Source of the DNA: an uncultured Mycoplasmatota bacterium
Lineage (GTDB): Bacteria > Bacillota_I > Bacilli_A > RF39 > UBA660
Length of the DNA: 64,000 nucleotides
Assembly: GCA_947574255.1 (NCBI GenBank)
Contig: CANPJT010000002.1
Location: 273-64,272 of the forward strand
Direction of reading: 5' to 3'
Shown one piece after another: positions 18,343 to 39,303 of the stretch (position 1 is its first letter; every line of letters starts with the position of its first letter). Both the position numbers and the translations under genes were made by a program. The notes beneath the pieces were generated by a model. The model saw only the letters and a program-made list of their open reading frames with translations, searched no databases and was not told where the DNA came from.

Positions 18343-19407
18343 TTATTTATGCTCCAATTTTTCTATATCAACACTATTTATTGAGTTAAATCTTTTAGTT
18401 ATTTTCTCTGTTGTTATATTAATATCTTTAACATCTTTTGTCACTGTGTCAATACTTCTTGATAGTTTATCCCAACGTTCTTTATAGCGGTCAAATTCAA
18501 AAGATAATTTATTTAATTCTTCATGAATAACTTTAGCATATTTGTCTCTTTCCATATTTTTTAATATCATACTAATAGTGGTTAAGGTGCTCATTAATGT
18601 TGTAGGACTAGTAATCCAAACTTTTTTATTATATGCTTCTTTTATTAAATCAGAATGATAAGCATTAAGTTCTGCAAATATTGCTTCTGCAGGTAAAAAC
18701 ATAATAGCTTCACTTGCTGTTTCTCCAGGAACAATATATTTTGAACTAATAGCTTCAATATGTTTTTTTACATCTATTTTAAATTGTTTTGTAGCATTAT
18801 CTCTTATTTCTTTTGGAAGAGTTTTATCAGTCATTTTTTGATAATTTTCTAAAGGAAATTTAGAATCTATACAAATTGTTCCTAAAGGAGCTGGAGCATA
18901 CAAAATTGCATCTGCAATATTCCCATTTTTTAGCTTATGTTGAATTTCATATATTCCACGCGAATTATCACCAAAAATATTAGTTAGAATATAATTTAGA
19001 TTTACTTCACCAAATATTCCTCTAGTTTTTTTATCAGTTAAAACACTTTGAAGTGAAACTATTTCTGAAGATAATCCATCTATCTTTTTTTGAGCTTCGT
19101 CAATTTTAGATAATCTTTCTAAAATATTATTAAAAGTTTTATTAGATTTTTGAAAATTATCTTCTAATCTTTCATTTACTTTATCATTTATATAATTTAA
19201 TTTATTAATTATTACTTCATTTAAATGTTCAAAATCATTTCTTAAGTTATTAGAAAACCCTAATTTAAATTCTCCTATTTCTTTGGTTATATTAGTTTCA
19301 AAACGACCTAATCGTTCTGTTACATCATTATTATCTTTTTTTCTTACTAAAATTATTATTATTAATATAATAATTAGAATTAATAATCCAATTATTATGT
19401 ACTCCAT
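18343..19407 (-). CDS. rmuC: DNA recombination protein RmuC
   Basis: N-terminal TM, a long coiled-coil and a C-terminal RmuC-type region (ICIDSKFPLENY...AIMFLPAEAIFAEL...VWITSPTTLM). Confidence 0.85.
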   Translation of the reverse strand: MEYIIIGLLILIIILIIIILVRKKDNNDVTERLGRFETNITKEIGEFKLGFSNNLRNDFEHLNEVIINKLNYINDKVNERLEDNFQKSNKTFNNILERLSKIDEAQKKIDGLSSEIVSLQSVLTDKKTRGIFGEVNLNYILTNIFGDNSRGIYEIQHKLKNGNIADAILYAPAPLGTICIDSKFPLENYQKMTDKTLPKEIRDNATKQFKIDVKKHIEAISSKYIVPGETASEAIMFLPAEAIFAELNAYHSDLIKEAYNKKVWITSPTTLMSTLTTISMILKNMERDKYAKVIHEELNKLSFEFDRYKERWDKLSRSIDTVTKDVKDINITTEKITKRFNSINSVDIEKLEHK

Positions 19408-36783: not shown

Positions 36784-37023
36784 TTAACCTTTCCAAACGC
36801 ATTTAAAGCTACTTCCTTGCTGACGACCATTTTGGTCATATAAAGCACATGTGGCCATATTGCTATTGCCATCTCTTTTGCAGACAGCAGCATTACATTT
36901 ACTTTTGGAGTCTAAATTATTACTAATCATCGGCCAGATTGTAGTATAGAAAAAAGCCGCTAGGACTCCTACCGCTACAACTACTACAACAGTCATATTT
37001 AATTCTCCAGTGGCTTCTTTCAT
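36784..37023 (-). CDS. Flp-like small pilin candidate 1
   Basis: 79 aa. MKEATGELNMTVVVVVAVGVLAAFFYTTIWPMI is followed by a short variable Cys-containing C-terminus. A strong RBS precedes it, and it lies just downstream of the TadB/TadC-like genes. Confidence 0.6.
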   Translation of the reverse strand: MKEATGELNMTVVVVVAVGVLAAFFYTTIWPMISNNLDSKSKCNAAVCKRDGNSNMATCALYDQNGRQQGSSFKCVWKG

Positions 37024-37072
37024 ATTCTATAACTCCCTTATTTTCTTTTCTCTTTTAATTTTTCAGAATATA

Positions 37073-37348
37073 TTATCCGCATTGTTTTGATCTAGTAACA
37101 TAACTATTTCCTTTTTTCACTTTAAAAGTACATGAATATTTTCCTTGGGCATTAGCAGCAGTACAACTTACATAATCTGGATCTCCACTATTACCCATCG
37201 TATTACCTGCTCCAGTATTACAAGCTGTTGTTCCTTGTAAGTTTGTTTGGATTGCTGGCCATACAAATGCATAGAAGAATGCTGCTACTGCAGCTATTGC
37301 TACTACAGTAATTACTGTCATATTTAATTCTCCAGTTGCCTCTTTCAT
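37073..37348 (-). CDS. Flp-like small pilin candidate 2
   Basis: 91 aa. MKEATGELNMTVITVVAIAAVAAFFYAFVWPAI is followed by a variable Cys-containing C-terminus. RBS GAGGAGGA. Confidence 0.6.
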   Translation of the reverse strand: MKEATGELNMTVITVVAIAAVAAFFYAFVWPAIQTNLQGTTACNTGAGNTMGNSGDPDYVSCTAANAQGKYSCTFKVKKGNSYVTRSKQCG

Positions 37349-37408
37349 TTTTTATTTTCCTCCTCTTTTTTAAGGATTAGTAGCAATAGCTGCAAATATA
37401 CTTATATA

Positions 37409-37556
37409 TTAATTACAAGTACATGTTTCAGTTTCAGCATTATAAGTTCCTTGTCCATTTGGACATTGATTAGCACAAGTATTATTGCCTAAGCCTGTTT
37501 TAATTGCTGGCCATACAAATGCATAGAAGAATGCTGCTACTGCAGAATATGCTACT
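37409..37556 (-). pseudogene. 5'-truncated third pilin copy (no start codon, leader missing, novel C-terminal region)
   Basis: My minus-strand translation is (E)VAYSAVAAFFYAFVWPAIKTGLGNNTCANQCPNGQGTYNAETETCTCN*. nt 37503-37545 are identical to 37251-37293 in pilin 2. The in-frame upstream sequence is TAA AAA ATA GGG AGG GAA, with no ATG, GTG or TTG. It is not in the ORF track. Confidence 0.7.
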
Positions 37557-37621
37557 TCCCTCCCTATTTTTTACTTTATTATTATATCATTTTTTATTTA
37601 TTATATCAATAATTTATATTA

Positions 37622-38410
37622 TTATGTTCCCATTAGCATTAATACCGCAAATATTAAGAGAACCATTACTCCAAGACCAGTAGTAACTAACATACTCATG
37701 GTTTTGGATTCCATTTTTTCTAGACGTTGCTTATACTTTAAATCACGAGCTTTTTGAGTCAAGTTTGAAATAGTTTTAGAAAAAGCAAGTAATTGATCTT
37801 GTTTATGTTCTTGTCTACCTAAACTTAAACGATATAGTAAACGCATCATACGCATCGAATCTCTTACAGGATATTGTTTAGCAAAATTAACATATGGATC
37901 GATTTTATCATTACCAGAGTTAATTTCATTAATAAGTTCATGTAATCCTTCTTTAAATATTGCAGGTGCATCATCAATAGATTTTCCAATTGCTACTGGT
38001 ACAGTATAATGTTGAATTAAAATCTCTAAGCTTTTTAAGTAATGTGGTAACATTGCATCTATTTCGTGAAGATGCTTTTTATAATAATTTCTAATATTAA
38101 AATAATCTAATTTAAATATTAATACTCCACCTAATACCGAAAATAAAATTGTAACATAATTTAATTTTGAAATAAAACAGAACATTAATACTACTGCTAC
38201 AATTAAACCATTTCTTATTCGTTTATTAAATAAAGCATCTCCATTTACACCGTCACCATATTTTGCTTTAACATAAAAATCCCAATCTTCTTCTTTTAAC
38301 TTTTTAAAATAGACTTCGTTATCAGCAATAAATTTGTTAGTGTTTATTCTTCCAGTATAGCTCATCATAAATATAATTATTATACCAATTATTAAAATTT
38401 CTATAGTCAT
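37622..38410 (-). CDS. TadC-like platform protein (type II secretion system F-domain family)
   Basis: 262 aa with TadC-like topology: an N-terminal TM, a TM pair at ~aa 68-100, a cytoplasmic helical domain and a C-terminal TM. It has a 1-nt overlap with the upstream TadB-like gene. Confidence 0.55.
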   Translation of the reverse strand: MTIEILIIGIIIIFMMSYTGRINTNKFIADNEVYFKKLKEEDWDFYVKAKYGDGVNGDALFNKRIRNGLIVAVVLMFCFISKLNYVTILFSVLGGVLIFKLDYFNIRNYYKKHLHEIDAMLPHYLKSLEILIQHYTVPVAIGKSIDDAPAIFKEGLHELINEINSGNDKIDPYVNFAKQYPVRDSMRMMRLLYRLSLGRQEHKQDQLLAFSKTISNLTQKARDLKYKQRLEKMESKTMSMLVTTGLGVMVLLIFAVLMLMGT

Positions 38411-39303
38411 TATTCTACCCCCAAATCTTCATTATAATATTTTTCACCTGTCACTAAAAAATAACTATTTATTATGATGATTAAATGGAGAATTAATTGA
38501 ACATACCATATTTCTAATAATTCTATATAACTATCTGTTCCGAGTAAAAATTGCATAGCCATTACAAGTAAAAACAATGCTAAGCCAAATGTAATAAATT
38601 TACGATGAAAGTTTTTTCTATCTACTTGATCACGATAAACTCCTTCTACTAAAGCATCGATATCTTGAGCCATATTTTCTAAAGCTTCACCAGAATCTTT
38701 AGCACCTTCTTTAGTAATTTGAAGAAATAATTGATTCATATTTTTAACCATATAAAATGGATATTTTTCATTAAAAAATTCTACTGACTCATCTATTGTA
38801 CCATTTTGGTAAGACATCTCTATCATGGTTTTTACATCTTGCAAAACTGGATCTTCTAATATTCCAGAGTCTCTAACACCTTCTAGTGATTTAACAAAAC
38901 TTTGAGTAGTTGTAAATTCCATAATAACATTAGTTGTATATATTTGAATTTGTTCAAATATATATTCGCTATATATTTTTTGATATCTTAAATATGTTAA
39001 ATATGGAATAAAAGCTATTGCAACTCCAGCATATATCAGGGTAAAAATTATGTTATAAAAGTAAAGATATGAGATGCCACCTGCAACTGCTCCAAACATA
39101 ATTATTTGAGTTGCATATTCTCTAGTTGAGAAGTCTTGACCTAAACTTTTAACTTTTTCTCTTACTTCTTTATAACTATAAGGTGCATATTTATTATAAA
39201 TATCACTTACTTGAGTAATAAAAAATCGATAAACATTTTTGCCGTTATTTTGGCGGTATGATATCACATATATTGCAATTATAATTAATATAATTAATTC
39301 CAT
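38410..39303 (-). CDS. TadB-like platform protein (type II secretion system F-domain family)
   Basis: 297 aa with an N-terminal TM, a TM pair at ~aa 65-105, a cytoplasmic domain and a C-terminal TM pair. It sits immediately downstream of the secretion ATPase. Confidence 0.55.
   Translation of the reverse strand: MELIILIIIAIYVISYRQNNGKNVYRFFITQVSDIYNKYAPYSYKEVREKVKSLGQDFSTREYATQIIMFGAVAGGISYLYFYNIIFTLIYAGVAIAFIPYLTYLRYQKIYSEYIFEQIQIYTTNVIMEFTTTQSFVKSLEGVRDSGILEDPVLQDVKTMIEMSYQNGTIDESVEFFNEKYPFYMVKNMNQLFLQITKEGAKDSGEALENMAQDIDALVEGVYRDQVDRKNFHRKFITFGLALFLLVMAMQFLLGTDSYIELLEIWYVQLILHLIIIINSYFLVTGEKYYNEDLGVE

What the first reader, a model, noticed from the sequence alone, without database searches (positions are those of the whole stretch)
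37251..37556. 5'-truncated third pilin copy sharing an identical 43-nt block with the expressed pilin: a possible silent cassette
Seen in sequence:
- A segment upstream of the two intact Flp-like pilin genes, missed by the ORF track, encodes ...VAYSAVAAFFYAFVWPAIKTGLGNNTCANQCPNGQGTYNAETETCTCN*.
- It has no start codon. The in-frame upstream codons are TAA AAA ATA GGG AGG GAA.
- It lacks the MKEATGELNMTV leader.
- nt 37503-37545 are 43/43 identical to 37251-37293 in pilin 2, the region encoding the AAFFYAFVWPAI helix end. The C-terminal surface-exposed part is completely different.
- All three copies have a conserved N-terminal helix and divergent Cys-containing C-termini.

Established knowledge: promoterless, 5'-truncated pilin cassettes with conserved recombination blocks drive antigenic variation in Neisseria (pilS to pilE).

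Inference: this may be a donor cassette for gene conversion of the Tad-like pilin. Alternatively it is a simple deletion remnant of a tandem triplication.
Basis: partly seen in the sequence, partly recalled or inferred. Interest (0 to 1): 0.62.

Follow-up and report, generated by a model that had tools for sequence, protein, structure and literature searches.

The report
Silent leaderless pilin cassette in operon leader
A third pilin gene copy that has lost its start codon and signal leader sits, untranslated, between the pilus operon's promoter and the expressed pilin gene, and because related uncultured gut bacteria carry the same arrangement it looks like a kept reserve copy rather than random debris, though no actual switching was seen.

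Summary
A 48-codon pilin reading frame (37555-37412, minus strand) has no start codon and no MKEATGELNMTV leader, and it shares a 43/43-nt block with pilin 2.

- The copy is not promoterless. It lies 25 nt downstream of the operon's near-consensus sigma-70 promoter, so it forms part of the 5' leader of the pilin-2 mRNA.
- It keeps a Shine-Dalgarno-like GGGAGGG with no start codon after it.
- It is followed by an inverted fragment of the pilin helix-coding sequence. This fragment is a perfect 17-nt inverted repeat with pilin 2 and brackets pilin 2's SD, ATG and leader.

Comparative evidence:
- The same "slot" occurs in at least three other species, and a second form occurs in three more.
- The cassette bodies are unrelated between species but all are intact and contain cysteines.
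- Each cassette's conserved block carries the genome-specific synonymous variants of its own expressed gene, which indicates gene conversion.
- The window's cassette type is a normal leader-bearing first pilin in other organisms.

No recombinant, inverted or duplicated form was found, but sequencing depth was low.

Verdict: probably a maintained silent donor or archival cassette (about 0.45). A slowly decaying relic (about 0.30) and a structural RNA leader remain live alternatives.

The parts
37581..37609 (-). Sigma-70-type promoter of the pilin operon: -35 TTGATA (37609-37604), 17-nt spacer, extended -10 TGaTATAAT (37589-37581).
   Evidence: 11 of 12 matches, TG present. The same TTGATA-17-TATAAT lies directly upstream of the first pilin gene in most related loci. 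No other promoter-like site lies on this strand between it and pilin 2.
37558..37564 (-). Shine-Dalgarno-like GGGAGGG with no start codon after it. It is the retained ribosome-binding site of the truncated copy.
   Evidence: The equivalent GGGTAGGG, GGGTGGG and GGGTAAGGG precede the truncated copies in L003, L007 and L013.
37409..37555 (-). Leaderless, start-less pilin copy ('deltaX'): 48 sense codons (37555-37412) plus the stop TAA (37411-37409). It comprises the C-terminal two thirds of the transmembrane helix and a 4-Cys body.
   Evidence: The body is 62% identical (71% over all 48 residues) to full-length, leader-bearing first pilins P0001/L089.
37503..37545 (-). 43-nt block identical to 37251-37293 in pilin 2. 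The 67-nt repeat at 88% identity spans 37490-37556 against 37238-37304.
37378..37394 (.). Inverted fragment of the pilin helix-coding sequence (N'), starting 14 nt after the deltaX stop. It is a perfect 17-nt inverted repeat with 37289-37305 (codons VVAIAA of pilin 2) and an imperfect one with the deltaX 5' end.
   Evidence: repeat I1. About 1e-4 such pairs are expected by chance in 1 kb. Equivalent inverted fragments follow the truncated copy in L003, L007, L013, L050, L057 and L060.
37306..37377 (-). 72-nt segment enclosed by the 17-nt inverted repeat. It holds the anti-SD-like AATCCTT, the true SD AGAGGAGG (37366-37359), the ATG (37348-37346) and the first 14 codons (leader) of pilin 2.
   Evidence: The RNA fold pairs the two arms around this segment.
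37073..37348 (-). Pilin 2: the intact, leader-bearing first expressed pilin (91 aa).
   Evidence: Identical in L001 and L082.
36784..37023 (-). Pilin 1: the second intact pilin (79 aa), of the conserved '...CVWKG' type found as the second pilin in nearly all related loci.

Best explanation
The segment is a silent pilin cassette. It was the former first pilin gene of the operon and has lost the spacer, the start codon and about the first 15 codons (the leader and the start of the helix). It kept its Shine-Dalgarno-like site.

Shown:
- It lies between the operon promoter and the SD of the expressed pilin 2.
- It is bracketed by inverted repeats: its own helix-coding 5' end on one side and an inverted helix fragment after its stop on the other. 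These repeats fold the leader into a long hairpin.
- The same slot exists in other species with different, intact bodies.
- The conserved block is kept identical to the expressed gene of the same genome, which indicates gene conversion.

Inferred from its position: it is transcribed as an untranslated part of the pilin mRNA leader. No RNA data were available to confirm this.

Inferred: the cassette serves as a single archival or donor copy. Homologous recombination in the shared 43-59-nt block would place its body behind the SD-and-leader module, giving occasional pilin replacement. The recombination could take two forms:
- Unequal crossover between sister chromosomes, which would create leader-X ahead of pilin 2.
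- Gene conversion that uses the next gene's leader as the 3' homology.

This would be a low-frequency event, not the high-frequency, many-cassette variation seen in Neisseria.
For: - Anatomy: promoter, SD-like site, frame without a start, 43-nt block and 17-nt inverted repeat.
- Stability: the same structure is present in two other assemblies, one of a strain with 10 SNPs.
- Recurrence, first form: promoter, GGGxxGGG, leaderless frame, stop, inverted helix fragment plus AATCCTAC, SD, then leader and pilin, in L003, L007 and L013. Bodyless hairpin remnants occur in L016 and L021.
- Recurrence, second form (L050, L057, L060): the copy starts at the ATG of ELNM|TV with no SD or promoter. It is followed by a conserved inverted-helix element of about 60 nt and then by the promoter of the expressed pilin.
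- All 7 truncated copies keep an open frame, a normal stop and paired cysteines. Their bodies are unrelated (about 30% nt identity), while the flanks are 78-97% identical.
- L003 and L013 share the derived junction, their bodies have diverged to 67% nt identity, and both keep the frame and a CxxxC...CxxxC pattern. Under simulated neutral drift, P(no stop and 4 Cys kept) is 0.004 at 33% divergence.
- Concerted evolution: each truncated copy carries the genome-specific synonymous variants of its own expressed gene. The 43/43 match compares with a between-species mean of 87.6%.
- Every cassette body type has a leader-bearing counterpart elsewhere. For the window's cassette this is P0001/P0002, sitting in the first-pilin position behind the same promoter.
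Against: - Only one cassette is visible in the 64-kb window, and the rest of the genome could not be searched.
- No chimeric, duplicated, deleted or inverted form appeared in the assemblies of this organism, in the L003 sample (four runs at about 12-16x each) or in L050 runs. No leader-X protein identical to the window's body is in the protein collection.
- Homology 3' of the body is weak: about 35 nt at about 91%, with a longest perfect run of 20 nt, in the next gene's leader.
- The slot is patchy among close relatives, and two loci keep only a bodyless hairpin. That is what gradual loss would look like.
- There are signs of relaxed constraint in the retained helix: Y-S in place of I-A in the window, A>T and F>L in L013, and loss of the FY..WP motif in L060.
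- The dN/dS estimate of about 0.2 rests on 27-42 codons and an ambiguous alignment. Over the unambiguous 15 codons my hand count gives a ratio nearer 0.6.
- L013's body is closer to an expressed pilin of a distant species (55%) than to L003's (44%). Bodies may therefore be imported rather than maintained in place.
Confidence: 0.45

Rival explanations
1. It is a non-functional relic of pilin gene turnover. An older first pilin gene was inactivated by a deletion of about 50 nt when a newer leader-bearing pilin took over. The inverted fragment is a scar of the rearrangement (for example a remodelled tandem-inversion duplication), and the copy is on its way to being lost.
For: - It is a single copy with no start codon.
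- Its distribution within the clade is patchy, and L016 and L021 keep only bodyless hairpin remnants.
- Conserved helix residues have degenerated in the window, L013 and L060.
- No variant forms appear in any sequence data.
- First-pilin types differ even between sister species, so turnover is fast.
Against: - 7 of 7 copies keep an open frame with paired cysteines.
- A shared derived junction carries different bodies in four species, so the slot outlives its contents.
- L003 and L013 keep frame and Cys pattern despite 33% divergence (simulated P = 0.004).
- The flanking inverted element is conserved across three species while the body and the promoter region are not.
Confidence: 0.3
2. The functional unit is the RNA. 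The inverted repeats make a long 5'-leader hairpin, with an SD-like sequence near the 5' end, that stabilises or processes the pilin mRNA or tunes its translation. The pilin fragment is only the loop's filling.
For: - All six long leaders fold as one hairpin that ends 12-25 nt before the ATG and leaves the true SD free.
- Folding z-scores are -6.6 (L003), -6.3 (L007) and -3.7 (window).
- L016 and L021 keep the hairpin without any pilin body.
- The right arm (AATCCTAC) is also complementary to the true SD (repeat I3 in L007).
- From my own knowledge: an SD-like site without a start codon near a 5' end resembles the STAB-SD stabiliser.
Against: - An RNA role does not explain the open frames, the conserved cysteines or the exchange of bodies.
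- Most relatives express the same pilins from a leader of about 30 nt with no hairpin.
- No Rfam family matches.
- In the window the left arm is degenerate, and the fold prefers pairing of the inverted fragment with pilin 2 itself.
- Compensatory-looking changes cannot be told apart from homogenisation of DNA inverted repeats.
Confidence: 0.13
3. It is a DNA inversion switch. Recombination between the inverted helix fragment and pilin 2's own helix-coding sequence would flip the 72-nt SD-ATG-leader segment. In the second form (L050, L057, L060) it would flip the promoter-SD-leader segment instead. Either flip turns the expressed pilin OFF and ON, and a second flip of the cassette body could in principle fuse leader and cassette on the other strand.
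For: - A perfect 17-nt inverted repeat brackets exactly the SD, start and leader.
- In L050, L057 and L060, 25-nt repeats at 88-92% identity bracket the promoter, SD and leader.
- The arms are kept identical to the gene in patches, so they do recombine.
- From my own knowledge: pilin inversion at sites inside the conserved 5' coding region is known in Moraxella.
Against: - The cassette has the same orientation as the expressed gene, so a single flip gives no alternative pilin.
- All 8 slot-bearing loci and all three assemblies of this organism are in one orientation.
- No inversion junction appears in four runs at about 12-16x each of the L003 sample or in L050 runs.
- No protein with the predicted flipped fusion is in the collection.
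- No recombinase family was found among the 28 window ORFs scanned.
- A 72-bp segment is very short for an inversion loop.
Confidence: 0.07
4. The fragment is translated from a non-canonical start into a small leaderless pilin-like protein.
For: - An SD-like site precedes the frame in all four loci of the first form.
- L003 has an in-frame TTG, and L007 and L013 have an in-frame ATA.
- Copies of the second form begin with ATG.
Against: - The window has no ATG, GTG, TTG or near-cognate codon in frame within reach of the SD.
- The candidate starts are not conserved, and a 1-nt indel puts L013's TTG out of frame.
- Copies of the second form have no SD, and in L060 there is no promoter because the copy follows a terminator.
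- The product would lack a signal leader and a third of the membrane helix.
Confidence: 0.03

Closest known systems
Neisseria pilE/pilS pilin antigenic variation (from my own knowledge)
   Same: - A 5'-truncated pilin copy that cannot be expressed by itself.
- A conserved block shared with the expressed gene.
- A divergent, Cys-containing surface part.
- Evidence here that the shared block undergoes gene conversion.
   Different: - One cassette rather than many.
- It lies in the same operon, directly downstream of the promoter and inside the mRNA leader.
- It keeps an SD-like site.
- There is no G4 motif in 37350-37640; the only adjacent G-runs are the two in GGGAGGG.
- 3' homology is weak.
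- No recombinants were observed.
- The pilus is a Tad-like system of a low-GC uncultured gut bacterium, not a type IVa pilus.
Pilin inversion systems: Moraxella tfpQ/tfpI (Piv) and the R64 pilV shufflon (Rci) (from my own knowledge)
   Same: Inverted repeats made of, or lying at, the conserved N-terminal pilin coding sequence, next to alternative C-terminal bodies.
   Different: - There the alternative body lies in the opposite orientation and one flip swaps it in.
- Here the cassette has the same orientation, no recombinase was found nearby, and only one orientation was seen.
Campylobacter fetus sap and Borrelia vls loci (my own knowledge; vls as described in PMC11499132, abstract seen)
   Same: A single expression site with silent homologues that lack the 5' end. 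I recall inverted repeats near the expression site, but did not check this here.
   Different: Those systems have arrays of cassettes and experimentally shown switching. This locus has neither.
STAB-SD and 5'-stem-loop mRNA stabilisers of Firmicutes (from my own knowledge)
   Same: An SD-like sequence without a start codon, plus a strong stem, close to the 5' end of an abundant mRNA.
   Different: Here the stem encloses a whole pilin reading frame, and most relatives do without it.

Membership tests
Neisseria-type silent pilin cassette system (pilS/pilE) | The silent copy lacks the start codon and 5' coding region. | tested here: met
   There is no ATG, GTG or TTG in frame, and the leader and about 15 codons are missing.
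Neisseria-type silent pilin cassette system (pilS/pilE) | The silent copy is promoterless and has no ribosome-binding site. | tested here: not met
   A promoter with 11 of 12 matches lies 25 nt upstream, and the SD-like GGGAGGG is retained.
Neisseria-type silent pilin cassette system (pilS/pilE) | Several silent cassettes in the genome. | tested here: inconclusive
   There is no other fragment in the 64-kb window.
Neisseria-type silent pilin cassette system (pilS/pilE) | Conserved recombination blocks on both sides of the variable part. | tested here: inconclusive
   The 5' block is 43/43 (67 nt at 88%). On the 3' side there is only about 35 nt at about 91% in the following gene's leader.
Neisseria-type silent pilin cassette system (pilS/pilE) | Chimeric expressed alleles in populations or strains. 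| tested here: inconclusive
   None were seen. However, depth was 2-16x, the data were contigs rather than raw reads, and only about 3 samples hold this organism.
Neisseria-type silent pilin cassette system (pilS/pilE) | A G4-forming sequence next to the expression site. | tested here: not met
   No run of four G3 tracts occurs in 37350-37640.
Site-specific pilin inversion (Moraxella Piv, R64 shufflon, gut invertons) | Inverted repeats that bound the switched segment. | tested here: met
   A perfect 17-nt repeat in the window, and 25-nt repeats in L050, L057 and L060.
Site-specific pilin inversion (Moraxella Piv, R64 shufflon, gut invertons) | An alternative coding segment in the opposite orientation. 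| tested here: not met
   All truncated copies are co-oriented with the expressed gene. Reading out of the inverted arm gives VVAIAANILIY*.
Site-specific pilin inversion (Moraxella Piv, R64 shufflon, gut invertons) | Both orientations present in sequence data. | tested here: not met
   Only one orientation appears in 8 loci, in 3 assemblies of this organism, in the L003 sample (4 runs at about 12-16x) and in L050 runs. Rare variants are not excluded.
Site-specific pilin inversion (Moraxella Piv, R64 shufflon, gut invertons) | A recombinase gene at or near the locus. | tested here: inconclusive
   No recombinase family was found in the 28 window ORFs scanned. Several ORFs match no family, and the rest of the genome was not searched.
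Flp/Tad (type IVc) pilin | A match to the Flp pilin family models. | tested here: not met
   There is no Flp hit. The only hit is a sub-threshold one to the archaeal Pilin_N model (16 bits against a cut-off of 25).
Flp/Tad (type IVc) pilin | A short leader ending in Gly before a hydrophobic helix, and a neighbouring TadA-type ATPase with two polytopic membrane proteins. | tested here: inconclusive
   The leader MKEATG|ELNMTV+helix is seen. The ATPase passes T2SSE (92.8 bits against a cut-off of 24.9), but TIGR03819 scores 100 bits against a cut-off of 373. The two membrane proteins match no family.
STAB-SD / 5'-stem mRNA stabiliser | An SD-like sequence without a start codon near the mRNA 5' end. 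| tested here: met
   GGGAGGG lies about 17-23 nt after the -10 box with no start codon. The transcription start is predicted, not measured.
STAB-SD / 5'-stem mRNA stabiliser | It raises the mRNA half-life. | not testable with these tools
   No RNA data for this organism were found.

The most novel reading that the evidence does not exclude
Uncultured gut Bacilli may carry a minimal two-copy pilin replacement system in their Tad-like pilus operon. A leaderless cassette is stored inside a hairpin in the pilin mRNA leader and kept recombination-ready by gene conversion of a 43-59-nt block. It would be re-armed by unequal crossover or conversion that puts it behind the SD-and-leader module, with the conserved inverted helix element acting as a recombination or processing signal. 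Two architectural forms of the system would have persisted across separate clades.
Probability: 0.25. Interest if true: 0.75.

Novelty: new variant of a known kind. Interest (0 to 1): 0.5.

Why it matters
- If the cassette is used, it would be a silent-cassette pilin reserve outside the classical Gram-negative pathogens. It would sit in a Tad-like pilus of uncultured, low-GC gut commensals of mice, rabbits and birds.
- It would also have an unusual layout: a single cassette stored in the transcribed leader and wrapped in inverted repeats. Two copies, one promoter and a block of about 50 nt would make a very simple model for how surface variation systems begin.
- If it is only a relic, it still records fast turnover of the first pilin gene in these bacteria.
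- Either way, gene callers miss such copies, and their repeats can collapse short-read graphs.

Tried and rejected
- The genome search and the fetch from genomes were closed, so the rest of the genome could not be searched for further cassettes or recombinases.
- Raw-read run X21 held no reads of this organism.
- Logan contigs of X1-X4 cover the locus at only 2-6x. They break at the 43-nt repeat, and none spans 37534-37580.
- The protein search with the L003 truncated copy found nothing.
- The search with the fusion protein predicted for a flipped promoter-leader segment in L050 found nothing.
- An exact look-up of pilin 1 found no record. The look-up of L007's second pilin returned only the same MAG and a 560-nt contig. 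One look-up failed because of a coordinate error.
- A 232-nt contig in run X26 joins L007:4882 to 5147 across the 59-nt repeat. I do not count it as a deletion product. At 3x depth, with no contig for the skipped part, a graph collapse is at least as likely.
- Rfam gave no match.
- Covariation analysis of the hairpin was considered and dropped, because homogenisation of DNA inverted repeats gives the same signal as RNA pairing.
- A model of single or double inversion that would fuse leader and cassette was worked through. It was rejected for the window's form because the promoter would end up on the wrong side.
Full report
**1. Check of the observation**

All pilus genes here lie on the minus strand. 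The stretch 37555-37412 reads VAYSAVAAFFYAFVWPAIKTGLGNNTCANQCPNGQGTYNAETETCTCN, followed by the stop TAA (37411-37409). The in-frame codons before it are TAA AAA ATA GGG AGG GAA, so there is no start codon and no MKEATGELNMTV leader.

The block 37503-37545 is 43/43 identical to 37251-37293 of pilin 2, and the repeat extends to 67 nt at 88% identity. About 2e-18 such perfect pairs would be expected by chance in this 1 kb. Between species of the same clade, the same block of the first pilin gene averages 87.6% identity, and 0 of 136 pairs are 43/43.

The truncation is real. Contig L082, from another sample, is colinear with window 39338-36928 and has 10 SNPs, none of them between the upstream gene and pilin 2. 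L001 is identical over 666 nt.

**2.

- **A promoter.** A near-consensus sigma-70 promoter (TTGATA, 17 nt, TGaTATAAT; 37609-37581) lies just upstream of the fragment. It is the only promoter-like site on this strand before pilin 2. The same promoter directly precedes the first pilin gene in most relatives. By position, then, the fragment is not promoterless: it is predicted to be the first 230 nt of the pilin mRNA leader.
- **A stranded ribosome-binding site.** The fragment keeps an SD-like GGGAGGG (37564-37558). A deletion of about 50 nt, running from just after the SD to about codon 15, would turn a normal first pilin gene into exactly this junction. The comparison gene is L089, and the alignment was done by eye.
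- **An inverted helix fragment.** Fourteen nt after the stop lies an inverted fragment of the pilin helix-coding sequence (37394-37378). It forms a perfect 17-nt inverted repeat with codons VVAIAA of pilin 2 (37305-37289), and it encloses the true SD, the ATG and the leader codons, 72 nt in all. About 1e-4 such pairs would be expected by chance. The same fragment is imperfectly complementary to the fragment's own 5' end.

**3. Context**

The locus is chromosomal, with tRNA synthetases, FtsW, PBP5 and BacA nearby. The pilins follow a secretion ATPase and two polytopic membrane proteins, and they precede two pseudopilin-like genes that carry a similar leader.

The ATPase passes Pfam T2SSE but falls below the cut-offs of the TadA and VirB11 NCBIfam models. 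Neither the pilins nor the two membrane proteins match any Pfam or NCBIfam family. "Tad-like" or "Flp-like" is therefore an analogy, not a tested membership.

Relatives are uncultured "Bacilli", "Tenericutes" or "Erysipelotrichaceae" MAGs from mouse, rabbit, chicken and ruminant guts.

**4. Relatives**

I fetched 80 loci using the neighbouring membrane protein as the query. The usual layout is: stop of that gene, promoter, SD, leader-bearing pilin A, pilin B.

*First form.* Three other species (L003, L007, L013) have the window's layout:
- promoter;
- GGGTAGGG, GGGTGGG or GGGTAAGGG;
- a leaderless frame that starts at GTAGCA;
- a stop;
- an inverted helix fragment followed by a conserved AATCCTAC;
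- SD;
- leader-bearing pilin A.

The inverted arms extend beyond the pilin sequence into the SD-like part, so each cassette body is bracketed by arms of about 20-40 nt. In every case the whole leader folds into one long hairpin that ends 12-25 nt before the ATG. L016 and L021 keep such a hairpin with no pilin body.

*Second form.* In another clade (L050, L057, L060) the leaderless copy starts at the ATG of ELNM|TV and has no SD. In L060 it directly follows a terminator. A conserved inverted-helix element of about 60 nt comes next. That element contains a terminator-like hairpin and is followed by the promoter of the expressed pilin. Across these three species:
- the element is 70-83% identical overall, with a near-identical core;
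- the helix block is 83-97% identical;
- the cassette bodies are unrelated (about 30%);
- the promoter region is about 55% identical.

On a tree of the two membrane proteins, the first form is scattered within one clade and the second form sits in another.

**5. Is it decaying?**

Evidence against plain decay:
- All seven truncated copies keep an open frame, a normal stop and paired cysteines.
- L003 and L013 share the derived junction, so the truncation predates their split (synonymous divergence of the neighbouring gene is about 1.05). Their bodies have diverged to 67% nt identity with in-frame indels, yet both keep CxxxC...CxxxC.
- In a neutral simulation, the chance of keeping the frame and all four Cys is 0.004 at 33% divergence and about 0 at the synonymous divergence of the neighbours.
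- The Nei-Gojobori ratio is about 0.2. I treat it as weak evidence: it rests on 27-42 codons, half the alignment is ambiguous, and my hand count over the clean 15 codons gives about 0.6.
- L013's body is closer to an expressed pilin of a distant species (L071, 55%) than to L003's (44%). Slot contents therefore seem to be exchanged with the general pool of pilin bodies.
- Every cassette type has a leader-bearing counterpart elsewhere. The window's type is the first pilin behind the usual promoter in L089/L090 (P0001, 71% identity over all 48 residues) and in L091/L092.

Signs of relaxed constraint:
- Y-S in place of I-A in the window's helix.
- Two substitutions in L013's helix.
- Loss of the FY..WP motif in L060.

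**6. Does it recombine?**

In the conserved block, each truncated copy carries the genome-specific synonymous variants of its own expressed gene:
- GCATTT in the window against GCATTC in L007;
- GTAGCT and TATGCA in L003 against GTAGCG and TATGCG in L013.

Matches are perfect over 43, 35 and 59 nt in the window, L003 and L007. Because the slot is older than these species, this is gene conversion between the two copies, and it is the one recombination step that the data actually show. The inverted fragment also matches the expressed gene perfectly in patches: 17 nt in the window and 15 nt in L007.

**7. Is switching seen?**

No.
- Three assemblies of this organism agree.
- The L003 sample (four runs at about 12-16x each) gives unitigs that run colinearly through the cassette, the inverted fragment and the leader, with no alternative joint.
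- L050 runs, including a second strain at about 15x, show the same.
- A contig in X26 that skips 264 nt across L007's 59-nt repeat could be the deletion product, but at 3x depth it is more likely a graph collapse.
- The protein collection holds no protein with leader plus the window's X body, and none with the fusion expected from a flipped promoter-leader segment.
- These data are contigs at low depth. They exclude frequent variants, not rare ones.
- No other pilin fragment lies in the 64-kb window.
- No recombinase family was found in the 28 ORFs scanned.

**8. Mechanism**

*What is shown.* This is a start-less, leaderless pilin copy sitting between the predicted operon promoter and pilin 2, wrapped in inverted repeats. 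It is conserved as an architecture, and it is homogenised with the expressed gene in the shared block.

*Most likely reading (0.45).* It is a retained silent cassette that can be rejoined to the SD-and-leader module by homologous recombination in the shared block.
- A single unequal crossover between sister chromosomes (cassette block against pilin 2 block) would give: cassette, inverted fragment, leader-X, inverted fragment, leader-pilin 2. That is an intact X gene inside the operon, and the change is reversible by loop-out.
- A conversion tract could instead end in the next gene's leader (about 35 nt at 91%).
- Either route would be a rare replacement event, not Neisseria-style rapid variation.

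*Rivals.*
- A relic of fast first-pilin turnover that has not yet decayed (0.30).
- A leader hairpin that matters as RNA, with the cassette as a passenger (0.13).
- An inversion switch of the SD-start-leader segment (0.07).
- Non-canonical translation (0.03).

I worked through inversion models. Because the cassette is co-oriented with pilin 2 and the promoter lies upstream of it, no single or double flip yields an expressed X in the window's form.

**9. Comparison with known systems** (from my own knowledge unless cited)

- **Neisseria pilS/pilE.** It works most like this system in having a 5'-truncated donor with a shared block. It fails several defining features: it is not promoterless, one cassette rather than many is visible, there is no G4 motif, and no recombinants were seen.
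- **Moraxella tfpQ/I and the R64 shufflon.** It resembles them in having inverted repeats built from conserved pilin 5' coding sequence, but the alternative body is not inverted.
- **STAB-SD-type stabilisers.** The SD-like site without a start codon, together with the 5' stem, resembles these.

I file it as a new variant of the silent-cassette kind, with function unproven.

Noticed in passing
window 37305-37318 (minus strand, leader of pilin 2): The leader coding sequence contains a perfect 14-nt palindrome, ACAGTAATTACTGT (codons T-V-I-T-V). It lies immediately 5' of the point where the truncated copy and the inverted fragment begin. It may be a breakpoint hotspot.
   Followed up: no
L050:4566-4625, L057:8571-8633, L060:5002-5069: A conserved non-coding element of about 60 nt, made of nested forward and inverted pilin helix fragments, follows the leaderless copy in three species. 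It contains a terminator-like hairpin, AGTAGTGGCAAT..TTGCTACTACT followed by GTTATTTCTG.
   Followed up: partly
L007:4882-5147 in run X26: A 232-nt contig at 3x depth joins the leader of the truncated copy to the body of the expressed pilin across the 59-nt repeat, skipping 264 nt. It is either the loop-out deletion or a graph collapse.
   Followed up: partly
L057:4868-8310 and L033:4861-8339: A family-2 glycosyltransferase-like gene and a polytopic membrane protein of about 838 aa are inserted between the membrane-protein gene and the pilin cluster. The functional labels are from reading the translations, not from a family scan. They may indicate pilin glycosylation in that clade.
   Followed up: no
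L019:5072-5356 and L026:2199-2768: Some relatives carry extra leader-bearing pilin copies. The middle copy in L019 has a degenerate, extended leader (MNEATKNSGMTVATGQLNTTV...) and looks like a decaying duplicate of its first pilin.
   Followed up: no
window 37622-39303 and 36784-37348: Neither the two polytopic membrane proteins in the TadB/TadC position nor the pilins match any Pfam or NCBIfam model. The ATPase scores far below the TadA and VirB11 family cut-offs. The pilus system is very divergent.
   Followed up: partly
window 18343-19407: An RmuC-family gene lies 18 kb away. From my own knowledge, E. coli RmuC limits inversion at short inverted repeats.
   Followed up: no
L002:4937-5410: In L002, an ORF of about 155 aa with no obvious relation to pili is inserted between the membrane-protein gene and the pilin promoter.
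   Followed up: no
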